Notes under the pieces: model-generated
What the model was told of the DNA's origin: nothing
Databases searched by the model: none
Seen by the model: the letters and a program-made list of their open reading frames with translations, nothing else
Shown: positions 14,054 through 58,794 of the stretch, piece after piece
Numbering within the stretch: the stretch's first letter is position 1
Layout of the letters: each line of letters starts with the position of its first letter
Position numbers and translations under genes: made by a program
Source: Limisphaerales bacterium
Lineage (GTDB): Bacteria; Verrucomicrobiota; Verrucomicrobiia; Limisphaerales; UBA11358
Reading direction: 5' to 3'
Assembly (NCBI GenBank): GCA_052140285.1
Contig: JBKQUF010000006.1
Coordinates: forward strand, 1,133 to 65,132
Length of the DNA: 64,000 bases

Positions 14054-14201
14054 GGTGTTGAAATCATTCTCGTCCTCATCCTCATTTCTCCATTGGAGGA
14101 AAAATTGCAGGCGGGATGCCGTTGCCACGATGGGCATGGTTTGTTACGCCAACATGCGCGGAAGGCGACAATTCGGTTACGAAGTAATAAAAAGTATAAA
14201 A

Positions 14202-14229
14202 CAGAAAGCAGAAAGCAGAAAGCGGAAAC
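14202..14229. repeat. heptanucleotide tandem repeat (CAGAAAG x3 + CGGAAAC)
   Basis: Read directly; intergenic. Confidence 0.8.
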
Positions 14230-14350: not shown

Positions 14351-15535
14351 TCACCACTGCAACGCGCGATAAAACCGCTGTGGGGCCGTGGCGGGGTCTG
14401 TCAATTGCAGGTAGCCGCCCGTGCCCGCCTGCAGTGGCAGGGAGAGCCAGAGGCTGTCGGTGAGGGAATTCTTGTATTCCAATTGGTAGGTTCTTCCGTT
14501 GCGCGTGGGCAGGGTTGCGCTGAACCCATTCGTTCCCAACGCCGGGTTGGTGAGCGCCGCCCGGATCGCCGGCGGAGCGGAGCCAACCAGCGCCAGGCTG
14601 TTCACGTCTCCGGCGGCGATCTGCTCCACATTGGTCAGATTCACCGGCACATTCGTGTCACCTTCGGTGTCCAGTCCCCAAGCCACCACGGTCCCGTTGC
14701 TTTTTAGCGCCAGGCTGTGCCAGGCGCCGGCCGCCACCGCCACCACGTTGGTGAGACCGGCGGGGACATTGGTCTGGCCGTAATTATTCAGCCCCCAGGC
14801 GAACACGGTTCCGTTGGCCTGCAATGCCAGGTTGTGCCAGCCCCCCGCCGCAATCGCCACCACGTTGCTCAAACCGGTGGGGATGTTCGTCTCGCCGTAA
14901 CCCTCGTTTTCACCCCATGCAAACAACGTGCCGTCCGACTTCAACACCAGATTATGGTAGCCGCCGGCCGCGATGGCCACCACGTTGGACAAGCCCTCCG
15001 GCACGGTCCCTTCGTAATCCGGCGAATTGTCTTCCCCGCCCCAGGCGGCTAGTGTGCCGTCGGTTTTCAGTGCCAGGCTATGGTAAAACCCGCACGCCAC
15101 CGCTACCGCATTGGCCAAATTGTCCGGCACGTCCGTCGCGCCCCAGGTATCGTCTCCCGTCGCCGCCACCGTGCCGTTCGTCATCAGCCCCAGGCTGTGC
15201 AGGTCCCCGCAGGCCACCGCCAGATAATTGGCCGCCGGCAGATCAAGCTGCCCCAGCGTGTCATCGCCCCAGCCTTCCACCGTGCCATCGGCCTTCAAGG
15301 CCAGGCTGTGACGCCAGCCGCCCGCCACCTCCGTGGCGTTCGTCAAATCCGCCGGCACGATGGATTGGCCCCAGTCATTGATTGAACTGGTGTCCACAAA
15401 CGTTCCCGCCCCCCACGCCACCACCCGCGTCTGGCCCCGGCCGGGCTGAACGAAGGCAAAGAGGCACAGGCATGGGAGCATTGCTCTCAAAAACAATCCA
15501 GCGGTAAACCCGGCTATGCGCTCTGTGTTTTTCAT
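14351..15535 (-). CDS. secreted RCC1-repeat beta-propeller protein with a C-terminal 'RFYR' beta-domain
   Basis: Seven or so repeats of 'VVAIAAGGxHxLALKxDGTxxAWG'. Signal peptide from the ATG at 15535 (MKNTERIAGFTAGLFLRAMLPCLCLFAFV). Ends '...TYQLEYKNSLTDSLWLSL...PQRFYRALQW'. The first 88 codons of the ORF track entry lie in REP repeats and are rejected. Confidence 0.8.
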   Translation of the reverse strand: MKNTERIAGFTAGLFLRAMLPCLCLFAFVQPGRGQTRVVAWGAGTFVDTSSINDWGQSIVPADLTNATEVAGGWRHSLALKADGTVEGWGDDTLGQLDLPAANYLAVACGDLHSLGLMTNGTVAATGDDTWGATDVPDNLANAVAVACGFYHSLALKTDGTLAAWGGEDNSPDYEGTVPEGLSNVVAIAAGGYHNLVLKSDGTLFAWGENEGYGETNIPTGLSNVVAIAAGGWHNLALQANGTVFAWGLNNYGQTNVPAGLTNVVAVAAGAWHSLALKSNGTVVAWGLDTEGDTNVPVNLTNVEQIAAGDVNSLALVGSAPPAIRAALTNPALGTNGFSATLPTRNGRTYQLEYKNSLTDSLWLSLPLQAGTGGYLQLTDPATAPQRFYRALQW

Positions 15536-21374: not shown

Positions 21375-21436
21375 CAACGTGGAGGAACCAAATTTTACCG
21401 TTTTCTTTGCGATATTCATCTTGCAAACTTAAGCGC

Positions 21437-21883
21437 ATGCCGTCCACGCACTTGAGCCTGCATTTCCACCTTGTCTTCAGCACGAAGGACCGGCATCCAT
21501 TTATCGCCGACACATGGCGTCCGCGTTTGCACGAATATTTTGGAGGTCTGATTCGCGCGGCGGAGGGGATTCTGGAAGCGATTGGGGGAACGGCGGATCA
21601 TGTTCATTTGCTCGTTGGTTTGCGGGCGACCCACGCGCTGGCGACATTCGTGCAGGACATCAAGCAAACTTCGTCGCGCTGGATTCACGAGAGCATCAAT
21701 GTAAAAAATTTCGCATGGCAACCGGGCTACAGCGCCTTTACGGTAAGCGCGTCCAATTGCGGCGCAGTAGAGGAATATATTGCGAACCAGGCGGAGCATC
21801 ACCGGTTAAAATCATTTCAGGAGGAATATGTGGCGTTTCTCCAGAAACATGGCGTGGAATACAATGAAAATTTTTTGTGGTGA
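21437..21883 (+). CDS. REP-associated tyrosine transposase (IS200/IS605 TnpA Y1 family, RAYT)
   Basis: 'HLSLHFHLVFSTKDR', HUH motif 'ADHVHLLV', and catalytic Tyr context 'EEYIANQAEHH'. Likely start MPSTHL at 21437. Confidence 0.85.
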   Translation: MPSTHLSLHFHLVFSTKDRHPFIADTWRPRLHEYFGGLIRAAEGILEAIGGTADHVHLLVGLRATHALATFVQDIKQTSSRWIHESINVKNFAWQPGYSAFTVSASNCGAVEEYIANQAEHHRLKSFQEEYVAFLQKHGVEYNENFLW

Positions 21884-22003: not shown

Positions 22004-23899
22004 ATGAATCATCCGCGTTACCAAGTGTGGCTGCTTGCCATATTGCTGTTGCTGGCGACCATTTCCGTTTTCTGGCCGGCGACGAGCCACGACTTTGTCA
22101 ATTATGATGACCCGTATTTCGTCACTTCGAATGTTCAGGTCCAGGGCGGACTGACTTGGGACGGCATAAAATGGGCATTCACCCACGCAGTGGTGGGGAA
22201 TTGGCATCCAATGACCACGTTGTCCCACATGTTGGACTGCCAAATATACGGGTTGAATCCGTGGGGCCATCACCTGACGAACGTGCTGCTGCATGGGGCC
22301 AACACGGTTCTGGTATTTTTGCTGCTTCGCCGCCTGACCGGTGCGGTTTGGCGGAGCTTGATGGTGGCGACATTGTTTGGGCTGCACCCGTTGCACGTGG
22401 AATCGGTGGCCTGGGTGGCGGAACGCAAGGACGTGTTGAGCGCCTTTTTCTTTCTGTTGGCCCTTCTGGCATACGGTCGCTATGTGGAACATGCGAGCGC
22501 GGGCAGCGGGGATGGAGCAGGGAGCAGGAAAGCGGACCCTCACCTCACCCTGACCACATGGGCTTGGTTTTTCCCCACGACCCTCACCCGGCGCCCTGGC
22601 GCCACCCTCTCCCGCTCCTGCGGGCGAGGGATATTCTCCCCTCCCATCGGATGGGAGCGGAGAGGGAACAGCAAGCGGACGCTTGTTTGGTATGTCGTGG
22701 CGCTGTTGCTCTTTGCCTTGGGCCTCATGGCCAAGCCGATGCTGGTGACGTTGCCGTTCGTGATGTTGCTGCTGGATTACTGGCCGCTCAAACGGTTTTC
22801 TGATTTCCGGTTTCGAATTTCGGATTTTAAAAACCTGCTGCGCGAGAAAATTCCGTTCTTTCTCCTGGCGGCGGTTATGGGCGTGGTGACATATCTCGCG
22901 CAACAGCACGGCGGCATGATGGATTCGCTTGGAAACGTGTCGCCGGGCACCCGGATCGAAAACGCGCTGATTTCCTACTGCCGGTATTTGGGGAAGTTGT
23001 TTTGGCCGGCGCGGCTGGCCGTTTTTTATCCGTATCCCGATCATTGGCCGCTGAATGAGGCCCTGCTGGCGGGCGCGTTGTTGGCGGGCATTTCCGCGTT
23101 TGTATTCACGCTGCGGACGCGGCAACCTTATTTGCTGACGGGGTGGTTGTGGTACTGCGGGACGCTGATACCGGTCATTGGATTAGTGCAAGTGGGCGGA
23201 CAGGCGATGGCGGACCGCTACACGTACCTTCCGTCATTGGGGTTGTTCATCATGGTTGTTTGGGGGGCGGCCGAACTGGCCAAACCTTGGAGGTATCATG
23301 CGATGGCATTGGGAGTGGCGGGCGGCGCGGTGGTCCTCGTATGCGTTGGCTTGACGCGGCGGCAACTGGTTTACTGGCAAGACAGCGAAACGCTGTACCG
23401 GCACACGTTGGCGGTAACAACGGACAATTTCCTTGCGCATCATAACCTCGGTATCTTTCTCTATAAAAAGGGGCGCACGGGCGAGGCGATCACCCAATAC
23501 CAGGAAGCGCTCCGCCTAAAACCTGATGACGCCATCGCCCACTACGACCTCGGAACCGCCCTCGGCAAGGAGGGCCAAACGGATGAGGCGATTATTCAAT
23601 TTCAGGAAGCCATCCAACTCAATCCCGACAACGCCGAGGCGCGCATCAATCTGGGGACCGCCCTGGCCGTGAAGGGCCGGATGGATGAGGCGATTGCCCA
23701 GTTTCAGGAAGCCCTCCGCCGGCAACCTGACAACGCCGAGGGCCATTACGACCTGGGCACCATTCTGGGCATGGAAGGCCGGATGGACGAAGCGATTGCC
23801 CAATTTCAAGAAGCCCTCCGGATCCAACCCGATTACCCCGCGGCCCGCCAGAATCTCGCGCACGCCCTGGAAATTAAAAATACTCCCGCCGACCATTGA
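22004..23899 (+). CDS. TMTC-like GT-C membrane glycosyltransferase (DUF1736/PMT_2-type) with C-terminal TPR array, paralog 1
   Basis: Start MNHPRYQVWLL at 22004. 'VNYDDPYFV' and 'HPLHVESVAWVAERKDV' in a polytopic N-domain. C-terminal TPRs of the type 'AIxQYQEALRLKPDxAxAHYxLG'. The upstream part of the ORF track entry lies in a REP element. Confidence 0.8.
   Translation: MNHPRYQVWLLAILLLLATISVFWPATSHDFVNYDDPYFVTSNVQVQGGLTWDGIKWAFTHAVVGNWHPMTTLSHMLDCQIYGLNPWGHHLTNVLLHGANTVLVFLLLRRLTGAVWRSLMVATLFGLHPLHVESVAWVAERKDVLSAFFFLLALLAYGRYVEHASAGSGDGAGSRKADPHLTLTTWAWFFPTTLTRRPGATLSRSCGRGIFSPPIGWERRGNSKRTLVWYVVALLLFALGLMAKPMLVTLPFVMLLLDYWPLKRFSDFRFRISDFKNLLREKIPFFLLAAVMGVVTYLAQQHGGMMDSLGNVSPGTRIENALISYCRYLGKLFWPARLAVFYPYPDHWPLNEALLAGALLAGISAFVFTLRTRQPYLLTGWLWYCGTLIPVIGLVQVGGQAMADRYTYLPSLGLFIMVVWGAAELAKPWRYHAMALGVAGGAVVLVCVGLTRRQLVYWQDSETLYRHTLAVTTDNFLAHHNLGIFLYKKGRTGEAITQYQEALRLKPDDAIAHYDLGTALGKEGQTDEAIIQFQEAIQLNPDNAEARINLGTALAVKGRMDEAIAQFQEALRRQPDNAEGHYDLGTILGMEGRMDEAIAQFQEALRIQPDYPAARQNLAHALEIKNTPADH
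22536..22670. repeat. palindromic repeat element inserted in frame inside the TMTC-like gene
   Basis: 'ccctctcccgctcc'...'ggagcggagaggg' arms and an inner 'tctcccctcccatcggatgggag' hairpin. This region has no counterpart in the paralog 30953..33250. Confidence 0.6.
22802..22829. repeat. heptanucleotide tandem repeat (GATTTCC GGTTTCG AATTTCG GATTTTA) within a CDS
   Basis: Read directly; encodes 'DFRFRISDF'. Confidence 0.8.
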
Positions 23900-30952: not shown

Positions 30953-33250
30953 TCATTGGCCTGGTGGGACGCTGGATAATTTAAGCGCCCTGTCAAGATT
31001 GTCGCGCGCGGGGGCGTAATCCGGGTTGAGGCGGAGGGCCGCTTGAAACTGGCTGATCGCGTCGCCAATCCGGCCTTCGTTGATGAGGGCAATGCCGAGA
31101 TTGTTGTGCGCCTCGAAGTAATCCGGTTGCAGTTGGATGGCCTTCTGAAACTGGCCGATGGCCTCGTCAAACTGTTTTTCCTGGAGAAAGGCATAGCCGA
31201 GGTTGTTATGGACCTCGACGTTATCCGGGTCCAGGCGGAGGGCTTCATTGTATTGGCCGATGGCCTCGTCAATCCGGCCTTCTTGACGCAAGATGAGACC
31301 GAGGTTGTAATGCGCGGTGGCAAGATTGGGGTTGAGGCGAAGGGCTTTCTGAAACTCGCTGCTGGCCTCGTCAAGCCGCCCGTTTTTGAAGAAGGCGCTG
31401 CCCAGGTTGTTGTGGGCGTCGGCATCATCCGGATTGAGCCGAAGTGCTTCTTTAAACTGGCCGATGGCCTCATCAATCCGGCCTTTTTGGAGGAGGGCAT
31501 AGCCGAGGTTGTTGTATGCCTCCACGTAATTGGGGTTGAGGCGGAGGGCTTCTTGAATCTGGCGGTTAGCTTCATCAATCATGCCTTTCTGGCGATAGAT
31601 GAGGCCGAGGTTGTAATGGGCGTCGGCATAATCGGGGCTGAGACGGAGGGCTTCTTGAATCTGGATCATGGCCTCGTCAATCCGGCCTTTTTTAGAAAGG
31701 GCATCACCGAGGTTGTTGTGGGTGTCGGCATAATCCGGGTTGAGACGCAGGGCTGCTTGGAATTGGCTGATGGCCTCGTCAATCCGGCCATCTTCAATGA
31801 GAGCGTTGCCCAGGCTGTTTCGCGCCTCAACGTAATCCGGATCCACGCGGAGGGCTTCCTGGGCTTCGCTGATGGCCTCGTCGGTCCGGCCATTTTCAAG
31901 GAGAACAACGCTGAGGTCGTTGTGAATCACAGAATTGGCCCGCGTGACTTTGAGTGTATGCCGGAAAAGAGTTTCACTGTCCCGCCAATAACCCAATTGT
32001 TGCCGGGTCAGCGCCAGACTCAAGATGCTCGCCGCCAAACCCGCCGCTCCCAGCGCAACGGTCCGGCGACGCCAGCCAAGGGCAAGGTCGCTGGCGCCCC
32101 AGATCGTGAGCGCCAGCACGCCCAGCGATGGAATATAAGTATATCGGTCTGCCATCGCCTGGTCCCCCACCTGCACCAGGCCAATCACCGGCACGAGCGT
32201 CCCTAAAAACCACAACCAGCCAGTCATCAAAAATGGGCGCGCCCGCCGTGTCAGAAAAAACAGCACCGTGACGCCGCTCAAAAACGCGCCCGCCAGCAGC
32301 GCCTCCGCTTGTGGCCAATGTTCGGGGAGAGGATATAAAACCGCCAGGTCCGCCGGCCAGAACATCTTTCCCAAGTAACGGCAGTAGGAAATCAGGGCAT
32401 TTTCAACCCGCGCCCCGATGGGCATGTTTTCAACCGTCATCACGGCGCCGCCATGCTTTTGCGCCGCGAAAGTGATGACGCATGCCGCCGCCGCGAGGGC
32501 AAAGAAGGGAATTTTCTCGCGCAGCAGGTGTATAAAATCCGAAATACGAAATCGGAAATCCGGTATCCGTTTAAGGGGCCAGTAATCCAGCAACAACAAA
32601 ACGAACGGTGCCGTCACCAGCATCGCCTTGCTCATCAATCCCAGCGCAAACATCAGCACGGCCGTCCAATACGAAGCCGTTGATTTTGAACTTTCCGTTT
32701 GTTTTTCTTCAACATATTTTGCGTAAAACAGCAGCGTCAGCATCAAGAAAAACGTGCTCAATACATCTTTGCGCTCCGCGATCCAGGCCACCGATTCGAC
32801 CCGGAGCGGATGCCATCCAAACAACGCGGCTAGCGCCAGGCTGCGCCACGTTGCCCGCGTCATCCGTTGGAAAACCAGAAACACCAGCGCGGTGTTGGCG
32901 GCATGAAGCAGCGCGTTGATCAGATGATGTCCCCAGGGATTCAGCCCGAAAAGCTGGCAGGCTAATTCGTGCGACAGCCACAAGAGCGGCGCCCAGGTGG
33001 CGGCCCGTTGCGTGGTGAAGGCCCATTTCACTCCTTCCCAGGTCAATCCACCCTGAACATGGGGATTTTTGGTGACGTAATCAGGGTCGTCAAAGTTGAT
33101 GAAGCCGCCGCGCATCGCCGGCCAGTAAAGCGCGAGGGTTGCCAGCGCCAGCAGTGCCGCCAGTTGCCACGGCCGAAAACGCGGTTGAAAGACGGCCCTT
33201 GCCGGGGCCTGCGCTCGAGTGGATTTGGGTTTGGTCGCGGGTCGGCGCAT
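30953..33250 (-). CDS. TMTC-like GT-C membrane glycosyltransferase with C-terminal TPR array, paralog 2 (inside the TPS operon)
   Basis: 'INFDDPDYV' and 'HPLRVESVAWIAERKDV' in a polytopic N-domain. The long C-terminal TPR array has repeated 'GRIDEAIxQFQxALRLNPDYAxAHNNLG'. Confidence 0.85.
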   Translation of the reverse strand: MRRPATKPKSTRAQAPARAVFQPRFRPWQLAALLALATLALYWPAMRGGFINFDDPDYVTKNPHVQGGLTWEGVKWAFTTQRAATWAPLLWLSHELACQLFGLNPWGHHLINALLHAANTALVFLVFQRMTRATWRSLALAALFGWHPLRVESVAWIAERKDVLSTFFLMLTLLFYAKYVEEKQTESSKSTASYWTAVLMFALGLMSKAMLVTAPFVLLLLDYWPLKRIPDFRFRISDFIHLLREKIPFFALAAAACVITFAAQKHGGAVMTVENMPIGARVENALISYCRYLGKMFWPADLAVLYPLPEHWPQAEALLAGAFLSGVTVLFFLTRRARPFLMTGWLWFLGTLVPVIGLVQVGDQAMADRYTYIPSLGVLALTIWGASDLALGWRRRTVALGAAGLAASILSLALTRQQLGYWRDSETLFRHTLKVTRANSVIHNDLSVVLLENGRTDEAISEAQEALRVDPDYVEARNSLGNALIEDGRIDEAISQFQAALRLNPDYADTHNNLGDALSKKGRIDEAMIQIQEALRLSPDYADAHYNLGLIYRQKGMIDEANRQIQEALRLNPNYVEAYNNLGYALLQKGRIDEAIGQFKEALRLNPDDADAHNNLGSAFFKNGRLDEASSEFQKALRLNPNLATAHYNLGLILRQEGRIDEAIGQYNEALRLDPDNVEVHNNLGYAFLQEKQFDEAIGQFQKAIQLQPDYFEAHNNLGIALINEGRIGDAISQFQAALRLNPDYAPARDNLDRALKLSSVPPGQ
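32534..32568. repeat. heptanucleotide tandem repeat (AAAATCC GAAATAC GAAATCG GAAATCC GGTATCC) within a CDS
   Basis: Read directly. On the coding (minus) strand it encodes 'DFRFRISDF'. Confidence 0.8.
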
Positions 33251-44668: not shown

Positions 44669-46030
44669 ATGAGCGAAGCGATTATCACTGTTTCCAATCT
44701 CGGCAAAAAATACCGGATTGCGCATCAAGGCAGCCGCCCGCGCTACACCGCCCTGCGCGACGTCATCGCCCAAAAATGCGCCGCGCCTTTCCGCGCCCTC
44801 TTCGGCAAAAACGGATTGGAGAAAAATTCCGCAAATCCGCAATCGGCAATCGGCAATCGGCAACCGGTGGAGGATTTCTGGGCGCTCAAGAACGTTTCCT
44901 TTGAAGTCAAACAGGGCGAAGTCGTGGGCATCATCGGACGGAACGGCGCGGGCAAATCCACCCTGCTGAAAATTTTGAGCCGCATCACCGAGCCGACCGA
45001 AGGCGAAATTCACATCCGGGGCCGCGTCGCGAGCCTGCTGGAGGTGGGCACCGGGTTCCACCCGGAACTGACTGGACGCGAAAATATTTTTCTCAATGGC
45101 GCCATCCTGGGCATGAGCCGGGCGGAGATAAAAAGCAAGTTTGACGAAATCGTGGCTTTTGCCGAGGTGGAAAAATTTCTGGATACGCCGGTCAAACGAT
45201 ATTCCTCGGGGATGTATGTGCGGCTGGCCTTTGCCGTGGCCGCGCATTTGGAACCGGAGATTTTGATCGTGGATGAAGTGCTGGCCGTCGGTGATGCGCA
45301 GTTTCAGAAAAAATGTCTGGGCAAGATGCAGGATGTGAGCAGAGGGGGCCGCACAGTGCTTTTTGTAAGCCACAACATGGCGGTGGTGAATAAACTGTGT
45401 CATCGCGCCGTTTATTTGACGCATGGACAGGTTACACAGATCGGCGAAACTTCCAAAGTGGTGGACGCTTATGTGGGGGCGGGCATCGCTTCAGGCGTGG
45501 AAGTTGCGATTCGCCCTGAGGACCATCTGCCATCTTGGGGCGGCAACACTTCCATTCAGTTACTGAACGTCCGGCTGCTGGATCCGGAGTTCGACTCTTT
45601 CCAAGTGCGCTGGCAGCAACAAATCCGGTTGGAATTGCGGTTTGAGGTCAAAATCGAACTGCGAACGGTTGTTTTTTCGCTTCTGATTTCAAACATGAGC
45701 GGGATTGAAATTTTAGGATCCCACTCCAGCCACGAAACCCCGTATTCGTTGAAACCTGGCTTTTACCGTTTTGAAGTTGAAATTGCTAATCCATTGAGAT
45801 CCGGGTTTTATCATCTCACCTTGGGCGCCGATTATCCCCTCGCGTCCGTACCACTATTTCAGGTTCCTCATGCTGCCACGTTGGAAGTATTGGACATTGG
45901 AGTGGGAGACAAACAACAGCCGCAGTGGGGCAACTTGATAATTGATGTCGAGGCAGCTTGGCGCAATCTGGAATCCAGCCCAAAAACGACCAATCCAAGA
46001 GACCTATGTAATTTGGGATCCCGTCCTTGA
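44669..46030 (+). CDS. wzt: polysaccharide/O-antigen ABC transporter ATP-binding protein with C-terminal glycan-binding-type domain
   Basis: 'GIIGRNGAGKSTLLK', 'LLEVGTGFHPELTGRENI', 'YSSGMYVRLAFAVA' and 'ILIVDEVLAVGD'. An extra beta-rich C-terminal domain of about 190 aa matches the Wzt architecture. Confidence 0.9.
   Translation: MSEAIITVSNLGKKYRIAHQGSRPRYTALRDVIAQKCAAPFRALFGKNGLEKNSANPQSAIGNRQPVEDFWALKNVSFEVKQGEVVGIIGRNGAGKSTLLKILSRITEPTEGEIHIRGRVASLLEVGTGFHPELTGRENIFLNGAILGMSRAEIKSKFDEIVAFAEVEKFLDTPVKRYSSGMYVRLAFAVAAHLEPEILIVDEVLAVGDAQFQKKCLGKMQDVSRGGRTVLFVSHNMAVVNKLCHRAVYLTHGQVTQIGETSKVVDAYVGAGIASGVEVAIRPEDHLPSWGGNTSIQLLNVRLLDPEFDSFQVRWQQQIRLELRFEVKIELRTVVFSLLISNMSGIEILGSHSSHETPYSLKPGFYRFEVEIANPLRSGFYHLTLGADYPLASVPLFQVPHAATLEVLDIGVGDKQQPQWGNLIIDVEAAWRNLESSPKTTNPRDLCNLGSRP
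44831..44866. repeat. heptanucleotide tandem repeat (GCAATCG x3 with flanking variants) within wzt
   Basis: Read directly. Encodes 'NPQSAIGNRQ' in the variable linker before 'FWALKNVSF'. Confidence 0.85.
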
Positions 46031-46055: not shown

Positions 46056-46076
46056 CTTGGTCTGCAATCGGCAATC

Positions 46077-46859
46077 ATGCTAGGCATTTTTGTCATCAAG
46101 GTGAAATTCGGCGGACTGGGAGATCACCTGTTTTACAGTCATCTGCCGCGCATCGCCAAGCAAAGCGGAAAATTCTCGAGGGTCTTGATTTCCGATTTAT
46201 CAGAATACCGGAACCCCGATTACCGGCGTCTGATTTGGGAGGCAAACCCTTACGTGGACGGTTTTACGAGGGAGGATGCGCCTTATCCGCTGTTTGACAA
46301 TGTGCCGGCGGGTACAAATCTAATGGATCAAATCATGATATTACGCGGCTTGGATGACGGGAAACGTTTTCACGAGCCGGAACTTTATTTCAAGCCTGGA
46401 AAAATTGATTCTCTGGCTGGGGCAACCGTTTATGATCCAAATTTTGTCTCCAATGTTGGTAATCTGGAAGCACGTCACATCGAACGCTTCTTTGCGCGCA
46501 ATAAAATCACACCGGACTTCATGTTGCAACCGCGCGGCAAAGGCTTTCCAGTGCGACGCTACGGAACAATAATTGAGACCAAAAATCTTGAGCATTACTG
46601 TTCTGTGATTGTCAGCGCCAGGCGGTTCATTTGTCTAACTTCAGGAGGAGCCACGCTGGCAGCGGCTCTCGGAGCACCGGTCGTGGCGCTTTGGGGCAAC
46701 GGCCAATGCCAGATGTTTCATCATTCGCCAATCCACACCTATGTGAATGTGAACCCGATCACACTGCGTCAACGTATCCGTGCCAGATTAAAAGGATACG
46801 CAAGAACACTGCTCCGAAGGATGACCGGTGAATTGAAAAACACCTTCAATACGAGCTGA
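46077..46859 (+). CDS. putative glycosyltransferase, GT9 (heptosyltransferase)-like
   Basis: 'FGGLGDHLF' near the N-terminus and 'CLTSGGATLAAALGAPVVALWG' near the C-terminus resemble GT9 motifs. Shorter than typical GT9 enzymes. Confidence 0.4.
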   Translation: MLGIFVIKVKFGGLGDHLFYSHLPRIAKQSGKFSRVLISDLSEYRNPDYRRLIWEANPYVDGFTREDAPYPLFDNVPAGTNLMDQIMILRGLDDGKRFHEPELYFKPGKIDSLAGATVYDPNFVSNVGNLEARHIERFFARNKITPDFMLQPRGKGFPVRRYGTIIETKNLEHYCSVIVSARRFICLTSGGATLAAALGAPVVALWGNGQCQMFHHSPIHTYVNVNPITLRQRIRARLKGYARTLLRRMTGELKNTFNTS

Positions 46860-57519: not shown

Positions 57520-58794
57520 ATGGCACGGATTATTCTTGTTTGGGGCTTGTGGGGTCCTTATCACTATAGTCGTTTTAAGGCGTTTCGCGACCTTGCCGCA
57601 ACCCCAGGGCATCAAGTGACCGGCGTCTCGCTGTTTTACGGAAGCCGTGACTATCAATGGGATTCCGCGAATTTAAAGGATGGAGTGATTTATTTCGATT
57701 TGGGCAAGGATGAGACAAAATTCCCGCTGGGCAAAATCGGACGTTTGCTTGCAATACCAAGGGAATTGCGAACAGAGGTCGCCTTGTTGCCTTCTTATGA
57801 CCACTGGTCCCTGGCCCTTAATATGGCCACGCGGCTCGCTAAGGGCCGGGTAGTGATGATGAATGACACCCATGCTGGCACTGCCCGCGCTTGCGGATTA
57901 AAGGCGGCATTCAAACAAAGAGTGGTGGCCGGATTTCACGCCGGGTTGGTTGCGGGCGAGCCGCAACGCCGCTATTTTGCTTCCCTGGGGATGCCCGAAA
58001 ACAAGATTTTCACCGGGTACGATGCTGTGGATAACGATTTTTTCGCCCGTCAGGCGGAGGAAGTCAGAAATCAGAAATCAAAAGTCAGAAGTCAGTATCA
58101 ATTACCGGAACATTATTTTTTGAGTTTGGGACGGTTTGTGGCCAAGAAAAATCTGCCCGTTTTGATCCGCGCCTTTCGGCTATTTCTTGATTCCAACCCT
58201 AATTCCCAGGCCCATCTGGTCATGGTCGGTTCGGGAGAAGCAGAACCGCAACTGCGTTCCCTCTGTCAGGAACTTCACCTGCCCATCTACGATAAAACCT
58301 CAGCTCAACTCGAAAATCGAAAATCGGAAATCGAAAACGAGTTGCCTGGCGTGCATTTTTATGGTTTCCGGCAAGCCGATGAAAATCCGGTGTTTTACGC
58401 CCTGGCCGATGCCTTTGTTCTGGCAAGTCTATTCGAAGAATGGGGGTTGGTGGTGAATGAAGCCATGGCTTCGGGGCTTCCCGTGGTGGTCAGCGAAACG
58501 GCGGGATGCGCCGAGGACCTTCTGGAAAGCGGCCAGCCGTCCGTGTTTAATCCCACAATGATTACGGACTTTGATGTTCGCGTTGGAATCATGCGGAACA
58601 TTCGGCAAAACGGATTTGTTTTTGACCCTCGTTCACCCCAGGAACTCGCCGCGATCCTTCAAACGTTGGAATCCCAGTCCGCATTGCGCCAGGCCATGGG
58701 AGAGGCCAGCCCACAAATCGTGGAAAAGTTTTCTTGCGGGCAATTTGCGGAGAATGCCCTGCGCGCGGCCAACGCCGCCTTGGAAGGCCGCTGA
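57520..58794 (+). CDS. GT4 family glycosyltransferase carrying two in-frame heptamer-repeat tracts
   Basis: 'FVLASLFEEWGLVVNEAMASGLPVVVSETAG'. Low-complexity inserts 'EEVRNQKSKVRSQ' and 'LENRKSEIENE'. Confidence 0.8.
   Translation: MARIILVWGLWGPYHYSRFKAFRDLAATPGHQVTGVSLFYGSRDYQWDSANLKDGVIYFDLGKDETKFPLGKIGRLLAIPRELRTEVALLPSYDHWSLALNMATRLAKGRVVMMNDTHAGTARACGLKAAFKQRVVAGFHAGLVAGEPQRRYFASLGMPENKIFTGYDAVDNDFFARQAEEVRNQKSKVRSQYQLPEHYFLSLGRFVAKKNLPVLIRAFRLFLDSNPNSQAHLVMVGSGEAEPQLRSLCQELHLPIYDKTSAQLENRKSEIENELPGVHFYGFRQADENPVFYALADAFVLASLFEEWGLVVNEAMASGLPVVVSETAGCAEDLLESGQPSVFNPTMITDFDVRVGIMRNIRQNGFVFDPRSPQELAAILQTLESQSALRQAMGEASPQIVEKFSCGQFAENALRAANAALEGR
58060..58094. repeat. heptanucleotide tandem repeat (GAAGTCA GAAATCA GAAATCA AAAGTCA GAAGTCA) within a CDS
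   Basis: Read directly. Confidence 0.85.
58311..58338. repeat. heptanucleotide tandem repeat (CGAAAAT CGAAAAT CGGAAAT CGAAAAC) within a CDS
   Basis: Read directly. Confidence 0.85.

What the first reader, a model, noticed from the sequence alone, without database searches (positions are those of the whole stretch)
58060..58338. Heptanucleotide tandem repeats sitting in frame inside glycan-biosynthesis genes (possible contingency loci)
Seen: 4-5 unit tandem 7-mers of a related consensus (G-A/C-A-A-T/G-C-R) occur twice in the GT4 gene at 57520 (58060..58094 'EVRNQKSKVRSQ'; 58311..58338 'ENRKSEIEN'). One also occurs in wzt (44831..44866 'NPQSAIGNRQ'), two units abut the GT9-like start codon (46064..46077), and one is intergenic (14202..14229). 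All coding copies fall in variable linkers and currently preserve the frame. Established: gain or loss of one 7-nt unit shifts the frame, and short tandem repeats in surface-glycan genes are the classic phase-variation mechanism in other bacteria. Inference: these may be slip-prone switches, or alternatively a dispersed microsatellite-like selfish element tolerated in loops. The low copy number argues for caution.
Basis: partly seen in the sequence, partly recalled or inferred. Interest (0 to 1): 0.6.

Follow-up and report, generated by a model that had tools for sequence, protein, structure and literature searches.

The report
Slip-prone 7-base repeats inside glycan genes
Short tandem runs of 7-base units sit in frame inside polysaccharide-synthesis genes of a soil/peat Verrucomicrobium; they belong to a widespread class of bacterial 7-base microsatellites, have been kept and homogenised at the same gene positions for a very long time, and losing one unit knocks the enzyme out in a related species in nature, but there is no proof that they are maintained as on/off switches.

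Summary
The window holds five period-7 arrays of at least 4 units, against 0.04 expected.

They are heptanucleotide simple-sequence repeats, a class known to be over-represented in bacteria. The AATCG-core type occurs in more than 120 genomes of many phyla, including the published Xanthomonas GGGAATC repeats.

In the GT4 gene both tracts lie at the same positions in orthologues down to about 50% protein identity. Their 7-nt periodicity far exceeds what the peptide requires. Unit variants are lineage-specific and uniform within each array, at constant linker length. This is concerted evolution at the DNA level.

Tract 2 and the Wzt tract lie in variable loops. Tract 1 encodes an ordered helix of fixed length.

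Slippage does occur. In a related species two contigs, identical over 12.8 kb, differ only by one AATCGAA unit in tract 2, which truncates the enzyme.

In the window's own species, four to five assemblies show no length change. Seventeen simulated frameshift alleles are absent from public data.

Enrichment in glycan genes cannot be tested, because the whole window is one polysaccharide locus.

Verdict: these are slip-prone microsatellites tolerated in frame. An adaptive contingency role is plausible but unproven.

The parts
58060..58095 (+). Tract 1: 5.1 units of GAAGTCA/GAAATCA, in frame in the GT4 gene (residues 181-192, EVRNQKSKVRSQ)
   Evidence: TRF and sequence. The observed 7-nt periodicity is 0.86, against 0.39 expected from synonymous-codon resampling (p<0.0005). 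The tract lies in an ordered helix, H172-193, at pLDDT above 90. Orthologues carry GAAGTCA, GAGGTCA, CTTCAGA or GTGGTCA arrays at the same site.
58310..58337 (+). Tract 2: 4 units of TCGAAAA (an AATCGAA-type unit), in frame in the GT4 gene (residues 264-273, ENRKSEIEN)
   Evidence: TRF. The tract lies in a coil (residues 259-277) with pLDDT about 59. Orthologues carry AATCGAA, AATCGGA, AATCGGC, AATCGCA, AAAGCGG or GGACCAC arrays at this site. A natural allele with one unit fewer exists in the orthologue (L215 versus L004).
57520..58794 (+). GT4-family glycosyltransferase gene (424 aa) that hosts tracts 1 and 2
   Evidence: Pfam Glycos_transf_1, E=1.4e-27. The protein aligns over its full length with homologues. 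The AlphaFold model has pLDDT 89.
44834..44867 (+). 4.9 units of AATCGGC, in frame in wzt (residues 56-67, NPQSAIGNRQ), in the loop before the Walker A region
   Evidence: TRF and translation. Wzt homologues carry GNRKSEIGNRKS, GNRQSAIGNRQS, NRKSKIENRKS or SQKSEVRSQ in the same loop.
44669..46030 (+). wzt gene: ABC-transporter ATPase with a Wzt C-terminal domain
   Evidence: Pfam ABC_tran and Wzt_C.
32535..32562 (+). 4 units of AAATCCG (A-rich on the + strand). Read antisense, they are in frame in the minus-strand membrane/TPR protein ORF 30953..33250 (IPDFRFRISDF).
   Evidence: TRF and translation.
14198..14228 (+). Intergenic array of 4.4 units of AAAGCAG, 61-91 nt upstream of the minus-strand DUF6941 gene start at 14137
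   Evidence: TRF and sequence. No promoter-like or terminator-like match. The same AGAAAGC/AAAGCGG unit occurs at GT4 tract 2 in relatives L142, L148, L163 and L184.
46064..46077 (+). Two units, GCAATCG GCAATCA, ending on the A of the ATG (46077) of the GT9-like gene
   Evidence: Sequence. A pair alone is weak evidence. However, in other phyla 17 of 37 arrays at the 5' edge of long ORFs end within -2..+14 nt of an in-frame ATG.

Best explanation
**What they are.** The tracts are heptanucleotide simple-sequence repeats (7-nt microsatellites). Bacteria of many phyla generate this class preferentially.

**Shown.**
- They are old residents of fixed sites in these genes.
- A DNA-level process homogenises them: lineage-specific unit variants are uniform within an array.
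- This happens without changing the length of the encoded linker.
- Gain or loss of one unit shifts the frame and truncates the enzyme before its catalytic C-terminal domain. One such one-unit loss occurs in nature in the orthologous tract of a related species.

**Follows from arithmetic.** Because 7 and 3 share no factor, an array encodes the same cyclic 7-residue peptide in all three frames. Every one of its 7 cyclic triplets is used as a codon. An array can therefore sit in a gene only if the unit contains no stop triplet and the peptide is tolerated.

**Inferred.**
- The homogenising process is replication slippage or misaligned repair.
- The A-rich units here give hydrophilic peptides (EVRSQKS, NRKSEIG, NRQSAIG) that fit a disordered loop or a solvent-exposed helix.
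- The tracts are moderately unstable mutational hot spots that occasionally switch off polysaccharide genes.
- Their instability is roughly a hundred-fold or more above the per-base substitution rate, and far below that of classical contingency loci.
- Nothing so far shows that selection keeps them for switching.
For: **Non-random, period-specific.**
- Five arrays against 0.04 expected.
- In 648 kb of related loci there are 58 distinct period-7 arrays, against at most 10 for any other period from 4 to 12.
- In 849 kb from many phyla the counts are 340 against at most 32.

**Wide distribution.** By my arithmetic about 1 match is expected by chance. The hits include Xanthomonas. The heptamer class is already described in the literature (PMC4692102 and PMC4679880, both citing Mrazek 2007).

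**DNA-level constraint, not peptide-level.** In 17 of 60 distinct orthologues, tract 1 periodicity exceeds synonymous-codon resampling at p<0.01.

**Concerted evolution.**
- L011 and L137 are 91.6% identical, yet tract 1 is GAAGTCA in one and GAGGTCA in four units of the other.
- Tract 2 units are AATCGAA, AATCGGA, AATCGGC or AATCGCA, each uniform within its lineage. In the eight that I counted by eye, the last AATCG starts 16 nt before the PGVH proline codon.
- In L170, homogenisation overrode the conserved E-x-R motif (EIRCQWSVVSGQ).

**Constant length.** The tract 1 linker is 19 aa in 111 of 111 parsed homologues.

**Slippage in nature.** L215 and L004 have no mismatch in 12,784 nt and differ by one 7-nt unit deletion in tract 2. 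This causes a frameshift.

**Structural tolerance.** Tract 2 is coil at pLDDT about 59. Tract 1 is helix. The Wzt loop carries the same peptide families.
Against: - No length variant was seen in the window's own species.
- Only one natural variant was found overall. It comes from a consensus metagenome assembly, although a 31-nt array lies well within the assembler's k=141.
- Homogenisation at constant length is not simply explained by gain and loss of single units, because each step would pass through a frameshifted allele. A conversion-like process, or selection on the array itself, may be needed.
- Pure arrays persist at the same two sites down to about 50% protein identity. The AATCG core recurs across phyla. 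Arrays tend to abut start codons. All three observations hint at a function that a purely mutational model does not predict.
Confidence: 0.6

Rival explanations
1. Adaptive contingency loci. On this view, selection for mutability maintains the arrays. Slippage by one unit then switches the GT4 and Wzt genes, and with them the surface polysaccharide, reversibly on and off in a subpopulation, for example to escape phage or grazers.
For: - The arrays are in frame, and one unit more or less gives a null allele.
- A natural OFF allele differs from the ON allele by nothing else in 12.8 kb. ON and OFF contigs come from different samples with neighbouring ENA accession numbers.
- Array purity has been kept at the same sites through deep divergence, which second-order selection would predict.
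- All four coding arrays of the window are in polysaccharide-locus genes.
Against: - The tracts are short (4-5 units) and 80-92% pure.
- There is no length difference among four to five assemblies of this species, nor among close pairs of relatives.
- Seventeen simulated OFF alleles are absent from public data.
- At 8-10% divergence the arrays differ by substitutions, not by length.
- The whole window is a polysaccharide locus, so location there carries no information.
- The repeat class is abundant outside genes and in many gene types in other phyla.
- Reversibility has not been observed.
Confidence: 0.27
2. Cis-acting nucleic-acid elements. On this view the heptamer arrays are multimeric binding sites for a DNA- or RNA-binding protein, one protomer per 7 nt, as proposed for S1, cold-shock or Csr proteins at Beggiatoa TAACTGA repeats. 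They would modulate translation or transcription, and coding copies would be constrained for that reason.
For: - The cores (AATCG, GTCAG) are conserved while the other unit positions vary.
- AATCG arrays occur across many phyla.
- 17 of 37 arrays at ORF 5' edges end within -2..+14 nt of an ATG. The window's own pair does so at 46064-46077.
- There is a published proposal for heptamer arrays upstream of start codons (PMC4679880).
Against: - Orientation relative to the host gene is not constant. In the window, three coding arrays are sense and one is antisense. Across phyla the counts are 65 sense and 23 antisense, a bias that stop-codon and peptide constraints can explain.
- There is no link to GC skew.
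- There is no Rfam family match.
- Many unrelated units (GGACCAC, GACTACT, ATCTCCC) behave the same way, which argues against one specific binder.
Confidence: 0.1
3. By-product of protein-level selection. On this view the protein needs a heptad-like repeated peptide, E-x-R at positions i and i+7 in the linker helix, and the DNA periodicity is incidental.
For: R183 and R190 are nearly invariant. The E-x-R x4 E-x-R pattern is present even in distant homologues that lack any DNA periodicity.
Against: - Synonymous-codon resampling rejects this view. For the window the observed 7-nt periodicity is 0.86 against 0.39 expected. Seventeen orthologues are significant at p<0.01.
- The variable unit positions change in concert in all three codon phases.
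- In L170 the array destroyed the second E-x-R.
- A protein constraint would give 21-nt periodicity, not 7-nt.
Confidence: 0.02

Closest known systems
Heptanucleotide long simple-sequence repeats of prokaryotes (Mrazek, Guo & Shah 2007, as summarised in PMC4692102 and PMC4679880)
   Same: - Both are tandem 7-nt units.
- Both are the most over-represented repeat period.
- Both are attributed to polymerase slippage.
- Both occur in many phyla.
   Different: - That survey found that units whose length is a multiple of three are the most likely to lie within coding regions (as summarised in PMC4679880).
- Here four of five arrays are in frame inside genes.
- They are retained at orthologous sites with concerted evolution at constant length.
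Xanthomonas GGGAATC and Nostoc GGGGA(T/C)T heptamer repeats (Rehm et al. 2015, PMC4692102)
   Same: - GGGAATC is a rotation of AATCGGG, so it has the same AATCG core as the window's AATCGGC and AATCGAA units. A Xanthomonas genome was hit by the AATCGNN scan.
- Both vary in length and sequence between related species.
- Both occur as inverted pairs (L183).
   Different: - The Xanthomonas repeats were studied as a class over-represented in intergenic regions and as G-quadruplex formers.
- The window's units lack G runs, and most are coding.
Cyanobacterial heptanucleotide tandem repeats (three units reported in Calothrix PCC 7601, per PMC4692102; known to me as STRR) and Beggiatoaceae TAACTGA direct repeats (PMC4679880)
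   Same: - Both are short heptamer arrays of 2-6 units.
- Both are dispersed and of unknown function.
- Both are often directly upstream of start codons (compare window 46064-46077).
   Different: - The unit sequences differ.
- TAACTGA contains stop triplets in the forward orientation, so it cannot be read through. The window's units are free of stops and are translated.
SSR-mediated phase variation of LPS/LOS glycosyltransferase genes in Haemophilus, Neisseria and Campylobacter
   Same: - Both are repeat tracts inside glycan genes.
- In both, a one-unit slip shifts the frame and gives a null allele.
- A natural frameshift allele was observed.
   Different: - The classical loci use 1-5 nt units in long, pure tracts, with copy number differing between nearly identical strains and high switching rates.
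- In H. influenzae, heptanucleotide repeats are tied to phase variation of HMW1A (title and abstract of PMC8262952). From my own knowledge, not checked here, those repeats lie in the promoter.
- Here the tracts have 4-5 units, are imperfect, and are length-invariant in most comparisons.
- The host is a free-living environmental organism.

Membership tests
Heptanucleotide simple-sequence repeats (bacterial LSSR class) | Head-to-tail tandem copies of a 7-nt unit, at least about 3-4 copies | tested here: met
   TRF finds five arrays of 4.0-5.1 copies at 80-92% match.
Heptanucleotide simple-sequence repeats (bacterial LSSR class) | Over-representation relative to chance and to other unit lengths | tested here: met
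   Five arrays against 0.04 in Markov shuffles. Period-7 counts are 58 against at most 10 and 340 against at most 32 for other periods.
Heptanucleotide simple-sequence repeats (bacterial LSSR class) | Unit-number change by slippage | tested here: met
   L215 versus L004 differ by exactly one unit in an otherwise identical 12.8 kb. There are also 22-unit expansions at the same site in L008.
SSR contingency locus (phase variation) | The repeat is placed so that a unit change alters expression of the gene | tested here: met
   Simulated changes of one unit give products of 198-309 aa that lack the C-terminal domain.
SSR contingency locus (phase variation) | Tract-length polymorphism among near-identical strains or within populations | tested here: inconclusive
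   Window species: no variation in four to five assemblies. Orthologue in a related species: one OFF allele against four to six ON contigs. Seventeen simulated alleles were not found. Most look-ups were biased towards the intact protein.
SSR contingency locus (phase variation) | High-frequency, reversible switching | not testable with these tools
   This needs read-level data or culture experiments.
SSR contingency locus (phase variation) | Long, uninterrupted tract that confers hypermutability | tested here: not met
   The window tracts have 4-5 units with one to three variant units each. Some orthologues are perfect but still have only 3.7-5.4 units.
SSR contingency locus (phase variation) | Genome-wide enrichment in surface or glycan genes | not testable with these tools
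   The whole window is a polysaccharide/exosortase locus, and no complete genome was available. In other phyla the arrays sit in many contexts and are about 41% intergenic.
Xanthomonas/Nostoc G-rich heptamer repeats (G-quadruplex formers) | G3-4 run in each unit that can form a G-quadruplex | tested here: not met
   The window units (GAAGTCA, TCGAAAA, AATCGGC, AAATCCG, AAAGCAG) contain no G run. Only the AATCG core is shared.

The most novel reading that the evidence does not exclude
Selection may keep the heptamer arrays as ancient, in-frame slip switches for exopolysaccharide and O-antigen-type genes in free-living Verrucomicrobiota. This would be a contingency-locus system with 7-nt units, fixed ON length and concerted evolution, operating outside host-adapted pathogens. 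More broadly, AATCG-core heptamer arrays across more than ten phyla, in loops, abutting start codons and as inverted pairs, may be one functional element recognised by a conserved factor rather than mutational debris.
Probability: 0.2. Interest if true: 0.8.

Novelty: new variant of a known kind. Interest (0 to 1): 0.55.

Why it matters
Heptanucleotide repeats have been known since 2007 to be the most over-represented microsatellite class in bacteria, yet they have no accepted function and almost no follow-up.

This locus shows three things about them:
- They can live inside genes in frame for very long periods.
- They stay pure through concerted evolution without changing protein length.
- They produce knock-out alleles of a polysaccharide glycosyltransferase in wild populations.

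If selection maintains them, phase variation of surface glycans would extend to abundant, uncultured soil and peat Verrucomicrobiota, with consequences for phage-host dynamics.

If selection does not maintain them, they are a clean natural system for studying microsatellite homogenisation under a reading-frame constraint. They are also a practical warning: peptides such as KSEIGNR, QSAIGNR, EVRSQKS and RTTDHGP in metagenomic proteins are translated microsatellites.

Tried and rejected
1. **Exact-protein look-up of the window GT4.** The protein is not on record. The near-identical P0001 gave three contigs with identical tracts. That look-up is biased towards unchanged length by construction.

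2. **Neighbour-protein look-ups, to remove that bias.** The upstream GT4 gave five contigs with no variation. Contig L217 ends 8 nt before tract 2, which is uninformative. The wzm protein is not on record.

3. **All-against-all blastn of the held loci.** Among pairs at least 90% identical (258 kb aligned, redundant) there were no 7-nt indels. L215 was fetched later.

4. **Seventeen simulated frameshift proteins** (one unit more or less) for five species. None is in the collection, while the positive control P0096 is.

5. **90%-identity clusters of ten homologues.** Length differences stem from start-site calls, an unrelated 27-aa deletion or N-terminal mosaicism, not from the arrays.

6. **Synthetic (NRKSEIG)x7 peptide search, as a census of host gene families.** It returned only 29-86 aa hypothetical ORFs without Pfam domains. 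These are probably translated intergenic arrays, so the search could not test enrichment.

7. **Replication-strand hypothesis.** All five window arrays are A-rich on the + strand. This was rejected: across phyla the AATCG strand matches the G-rich strand in 91 cases and not in 97.

8. **Protein-level explanation of tract 1.** Rejected by codon resampling.

9. **Rfam and promoter/terminator scans.** Nothing found.

10. **My greedy ORF caller.** It misassigned some arrays; for example, it dropped the GT4 ORF. The coding/intergenic fractions are therefore approximate.

11. **The Mrazek 2007 paper.** It is not held. It is cited only as summarised by PMC4692102 and PMC4679880.
Full report
**1. The observation**

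| Coordinates | Units | Copies | Match | Location |
|---|---|---|---|---|
| 58060-58095 | GAAGTCA/GAAATCA | 5.1 | 86% | GT4 ORF 57520..58794, residues 181-192, EVRNQKSKVRSQ |
| 58310-58337 | TCGAAAA | 4.0 | 90% | GT4, residues 264-273, ENRKSEIEN |
| 44834-44867 | AATCGGC | 4.9 | 92% | wzt, NPQSAIGNRQ |
| 14198-14228 | AAAGCAG | 4.4 | 91% | intergenic |

- Two further units, GCAATCG GCAATCA at 46064-46077, overlap the A of the ATG at 46077.
- A fifth array was missed: 32535-32562, AAATCCG x4. It is read antisense and in frame in the minus-strand membrane/TPR ORF 30953..33250 (IPDFRFRISDF).
- Pfam confirms the host genes: Glycos_transf_1 (GT4), ABC_tran plus Wzt_C, and a weak GT9 match.
- The arrays are far beyond chance. 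The window has five period-7 arrays of at least 3.5 copies. The mean in 100 third-order Markov shuffles is 0.04, and no other period from 4 to 12 has more than one array.
- The shared consensus is loose, an A-A-[AG]-[TG]-C core. Even so, AARTCNNAARTC occurs 8 times against 0.61 expected.

**2. Where the sequence comes from**

- Homologues of the GT4 are named Limisphaerales or Verrucomicrobiota in the source databases.
- Nearly the whole window is one polysaccharide locus. It contains an exosortase EpsH, Poly_export, a Wzz-like tyrosine-kinase protein, Bac_transf, wzm/wzt, about ten glycosyltransferases and a ShlB/POTRA protein.
- The window therefore offers no non-glycan background. The fact that all four coding arrays lie in glycan-locus genes carries no statistical weight.

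**3. The repeat class is general and known**

By my arithmetic about one match is expected by chance.
- The hits come from Acidobacteriota, Verrucomicrobiota, Planctomycetota, Chloroflexota, Bacteroidota, Gemmatimonadota, cyanobacteria, Desulfobacterota and others, and from Xanthomonas.
- In those 849 kb there are 340 period-7 arrays, against at most 32 for any other period. Carriers of one heptamer array thus carry many, with many different units.
- About 41% of the arrays are outside long ORFs, which cover 88% of the sequence (the gene calling is approximate).
- The literature describes this class. Heptamers are the most over-represented long SSRs in many bacteria. The explanation suggested is that about 7 nt interact with the polymerase and favour slippage (Mrazek 2007, as cited in PMC4692102 and PMC4679880).
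- The Xanthomonas GGGAATC repeat is a rotation of AATCGGG, so it shares the window's AATCG core.

**4. What is special here: fixed sites, concerted evolution, constant length**

I collected DNA of GT4 orthologues through exact-protein look-ups and a metagenome scan (80 loci).

*Tract 1*
- The linker is exactly 19 aa in all 111 homologues in which the anchoring motifs could be parsed, out of 120.
- In the AlphaFold model it is an ordered helix, H172-193, at pLDDT above 90. It carries the nearly invariant R183, R190 and Y193.
- In 17 of 60 distinct orthologues the DNA has 7-nt periodicity far above what the peptide and local codon usage would give. Examples are the window at 0.86 against 0.39, and L150 at 0.97 against 0.47.
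- The unit differs by lineage and is uniform within each array: GAAGTCA, GAGGTCA, CTTCAGA, GTGGTCA or GAAATCA.
- L011 and L137 are 91.6% identical overall. Tract 1 nevertheless reads GAAGTCA in one and GAGGTCA in four successive units of the other.
- In L170 the array has overwritten the conserved second E-x-R motif (EIRCQWSVVSGQ).
- Distant orthologues at 45-50% identity keep the E-x-R x4 E-x-R peptide but have no DNA periodicity.

*Tract 2*
- It lies in a coil (residues 259-277) with pLDDT about 59.
- Among orthologues with the modal 16-aa linker, the site holds AATCGAA, AATCGGA, AATCGGC, AATCGCA or AAAGCGG arrays of 3.7-5.4 units. Many are 100% pure. In the eight that I counted by eye, the last AATCG starts 16 nt before the proline codon of PGVH.
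- The two variable unit positions change together in all units. A peptide constraint cannot produce that pattern, so the arrays share ancestry and are homogenised at the DNA level.
- Arrays with more units have spread into the flank rather than lengthening the linker.
- Other lineages carry expansions at this site, up to 22 units of GGACCAC in L008. These add about 60 residues in frame.
- Some lineages carry a third array in another loop (L160, L170).

*Wzt*
- Wzt homologues show the same picture at the protein level. GNRKSEIGNRKS, GNRQSAIGNRQS, NRKSKIENRKS, RNPQSAIRNPQS and SQKSEVRSQ all occur in the loop that holds the window's array.

**5. Why such arrays can be coding**

- Because 7 and 3 are coprime, all three frames of an array encode the same cyclic 7-residue peptide. 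All seven cyclic triplets of the unit are used as codons.
- A unit that contains TAA, TAG or TGA in any rotation therefore cannot be translated on that strand. For example, the complement of GAAGTCA contains TGA.
- The A-rich strands give hydrophilic peptides.
- This probably explains why AATCG is on the sense strand in 65 of 88 coding arrays across phyla.
- Orientation shows no relation to GC skew (91 matching, 97 not). That rejects my first idea of a replication-strand bias, which arose because all five window arrays are A-rich on the + strand.

**6. Do the tracts slip?**

- *In the window's species:* contigs from three to four other samples are 99.9-99.99% identical and have unchanged tracts.
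- *Among close pairs of relatives:* no 7-nt indel was found. At 8-10% divergence the arrays differ by substitutions.
- *A bias to note:* most of these look-ups required the intact protein, so they are biased against variants.
- *The informative case came from the homologue list.* P0096 (354 aa) equals P0004 (427 aa) up to IENRKSK and then diverges.
- Its contig L215 matches L004 over 12,784 nt with no mismatch and a single gap. The gap is one AATCGAA unit of tract 2, leaving 3.4 units instead of 4.4. It frameshifts the gene.
- The array (31 nt) is much shorter than the assembler's k-mer (141), so collapse during assembly is unlikely.
- ON contigs for this species come from four to six samples, and the OFF contig from one.
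- Seventeen other simulated alleles (one unit more or less) for five species are absent from the 15-billion-protein collection. Clusters at 90% identity show no array-length variants.
- *Rough inference:* the tracts mutate by unit loss or gain perhaps a hundred-fold or more faster than a single base substitutes. They are orders of magnitude more stable than classical contingency loci.

**7. Interpretation**

- *Best supported:* these are members of the bacterial heptanucleotide microsatellite class. They are old residents of tolerant sites in polysaccharide genes, kept pure by a slippage- or conversion-type process under a strict frame and length constraint. They occasionally produce null alleles.
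- *The contingency-locus reading:* the shared mechanism is demonstrated (slippage, frameshift, loss of enzyme). It lacks its defining population features here, and the tracts are short and impure. I give it about 0.27.
- *An unexplained point that favours some selection on the arrays:* homogenisation at constant length would, under simple gains and losses of one unit, pass through frameshifted intermediates. Yet purity has persisted at two sites of one gene down to about 50% protein identity.
- *A cis-element reading (multimeric binding sites):* hinted at by the conserved cores and by arrays abutting start codons (17 of 37; window 46064-46077). It is weakened by inconsistent orientation and by the many unrelated units that behave alike.
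- *Protein-level selection and chance:* both are rejected.

**8. Novelty**

- The repeat class and slippage-induced frameshifts in glycan genes are both known.
- What I did not find described in the papers consulted is the combination of:
  - heptamer units in frame;
  - retention at orthologous sites over deep divergence;
  - concerted evolution at constant linker length;
  - a wild OFF allele in an environmental Verrucomicrobium.
- I class it as a new variant of a known kind, of moderate interest.

Noticed in passing
It is read antisense and in frame (IPDFRFRISDF) in a loop of the multi-pass membrane N-terminal part of the TPR protein ORF 30953..33250. That N-terminal part has no Pfam match.
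   Followed up: partly
L015-L134 (many phyla); window 46064-46077: Heptamer arrays often end directly at start codons. Of 37 arrays at the 5' edge of long ORFs, 17 end within -2..+14 nt of an in-frame ATG that opens a plausible protein. The window's two-unit GCAATCG pair does the same at ATG 46077. Beggiatoa TAACTGA repeats were reported in the same position.
   Followed up: partly
L183 4290-4389 and 4907-5060: Downstream of a GT4 orthologue, AGAGGTC arrays and their complement CTCTGAC form inverted pairs with arms up to 34 nt at 85% complementarity. The unit is the same as in coding tract 1 of relatives. It therefore occurs both as translated sequence and as potential intergenic hairpins.
   Followed up: partly
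L008 4171-4325; L142 3768-3945; L170 1528-1577: A different unit, GGACCAC (peptide RTTDHGP), has expanded to as many as 22 units at tract 2 in some orthologues. It adds about 60 residues in frame. Further arrays (CTGACTA, CTATCAT) lie just after the stop codon.
   Followed up: partly
L160 3658-3690; L170 1397-1427: A third site in the GT4 gene, the FLDSxPxxQTH loop before the HLVMVGSG strand, carries a perfect AAATCGG x4.7 array in L160 and an ATCTCCC-type array in L170. New arrays therefore appear in other loops, with units that already exist elsewhere in the same gene.
   Followed up: no
window 21407-21883: A 158-aa IS200-like Y1 transposase (PF01797, E=1.6e-25). It is similar in size to the REP-associated tyrosine transposases. 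No link to the heptamer arrays was examined.
   Followed up: no
L009 11474 versus L010: A 1-nt indel (AAG-AAC versus AAGAAAC) changes the gene call of the GT4 gene next to the tract-bearing one, from 423 aa to 320 aa, between two 99.8%-identical contigs. It may be a real frameshift polymorphism or an assembly error.
   Followed up: partly
P0151 cluster (Wzt homologues P0359, P0362): Two members from contigs of about 25 kb start just after the long variable loop of Wzt (VSKISSSEDFWAL...). The intact protein has a 92-aa loop there. This may reflect a frameshift within the loop. The DNA was not fetched.
   Followed up: no
window 23483-23820, 31006-31904, 14672-14900: Longer tandem repeats are present: periods of 102 and 306 nt, which are TPR units, and 117 nt in the RCC1-repeat ORF. 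They are ordinary coding repeats of repeat proteins and are unrelated to the heptamers.
   Followed up: no
one search hits P0241-P0329: Public protein sets contain many 29-86 aa 'hypothetical proteins' that consist largely of NRKSEIG-type repeats, including one from Xanthomonas oryzae. These are most likely translated intergenic heptamer arrays, which would make them annotation artefacts.
   Followed up: no
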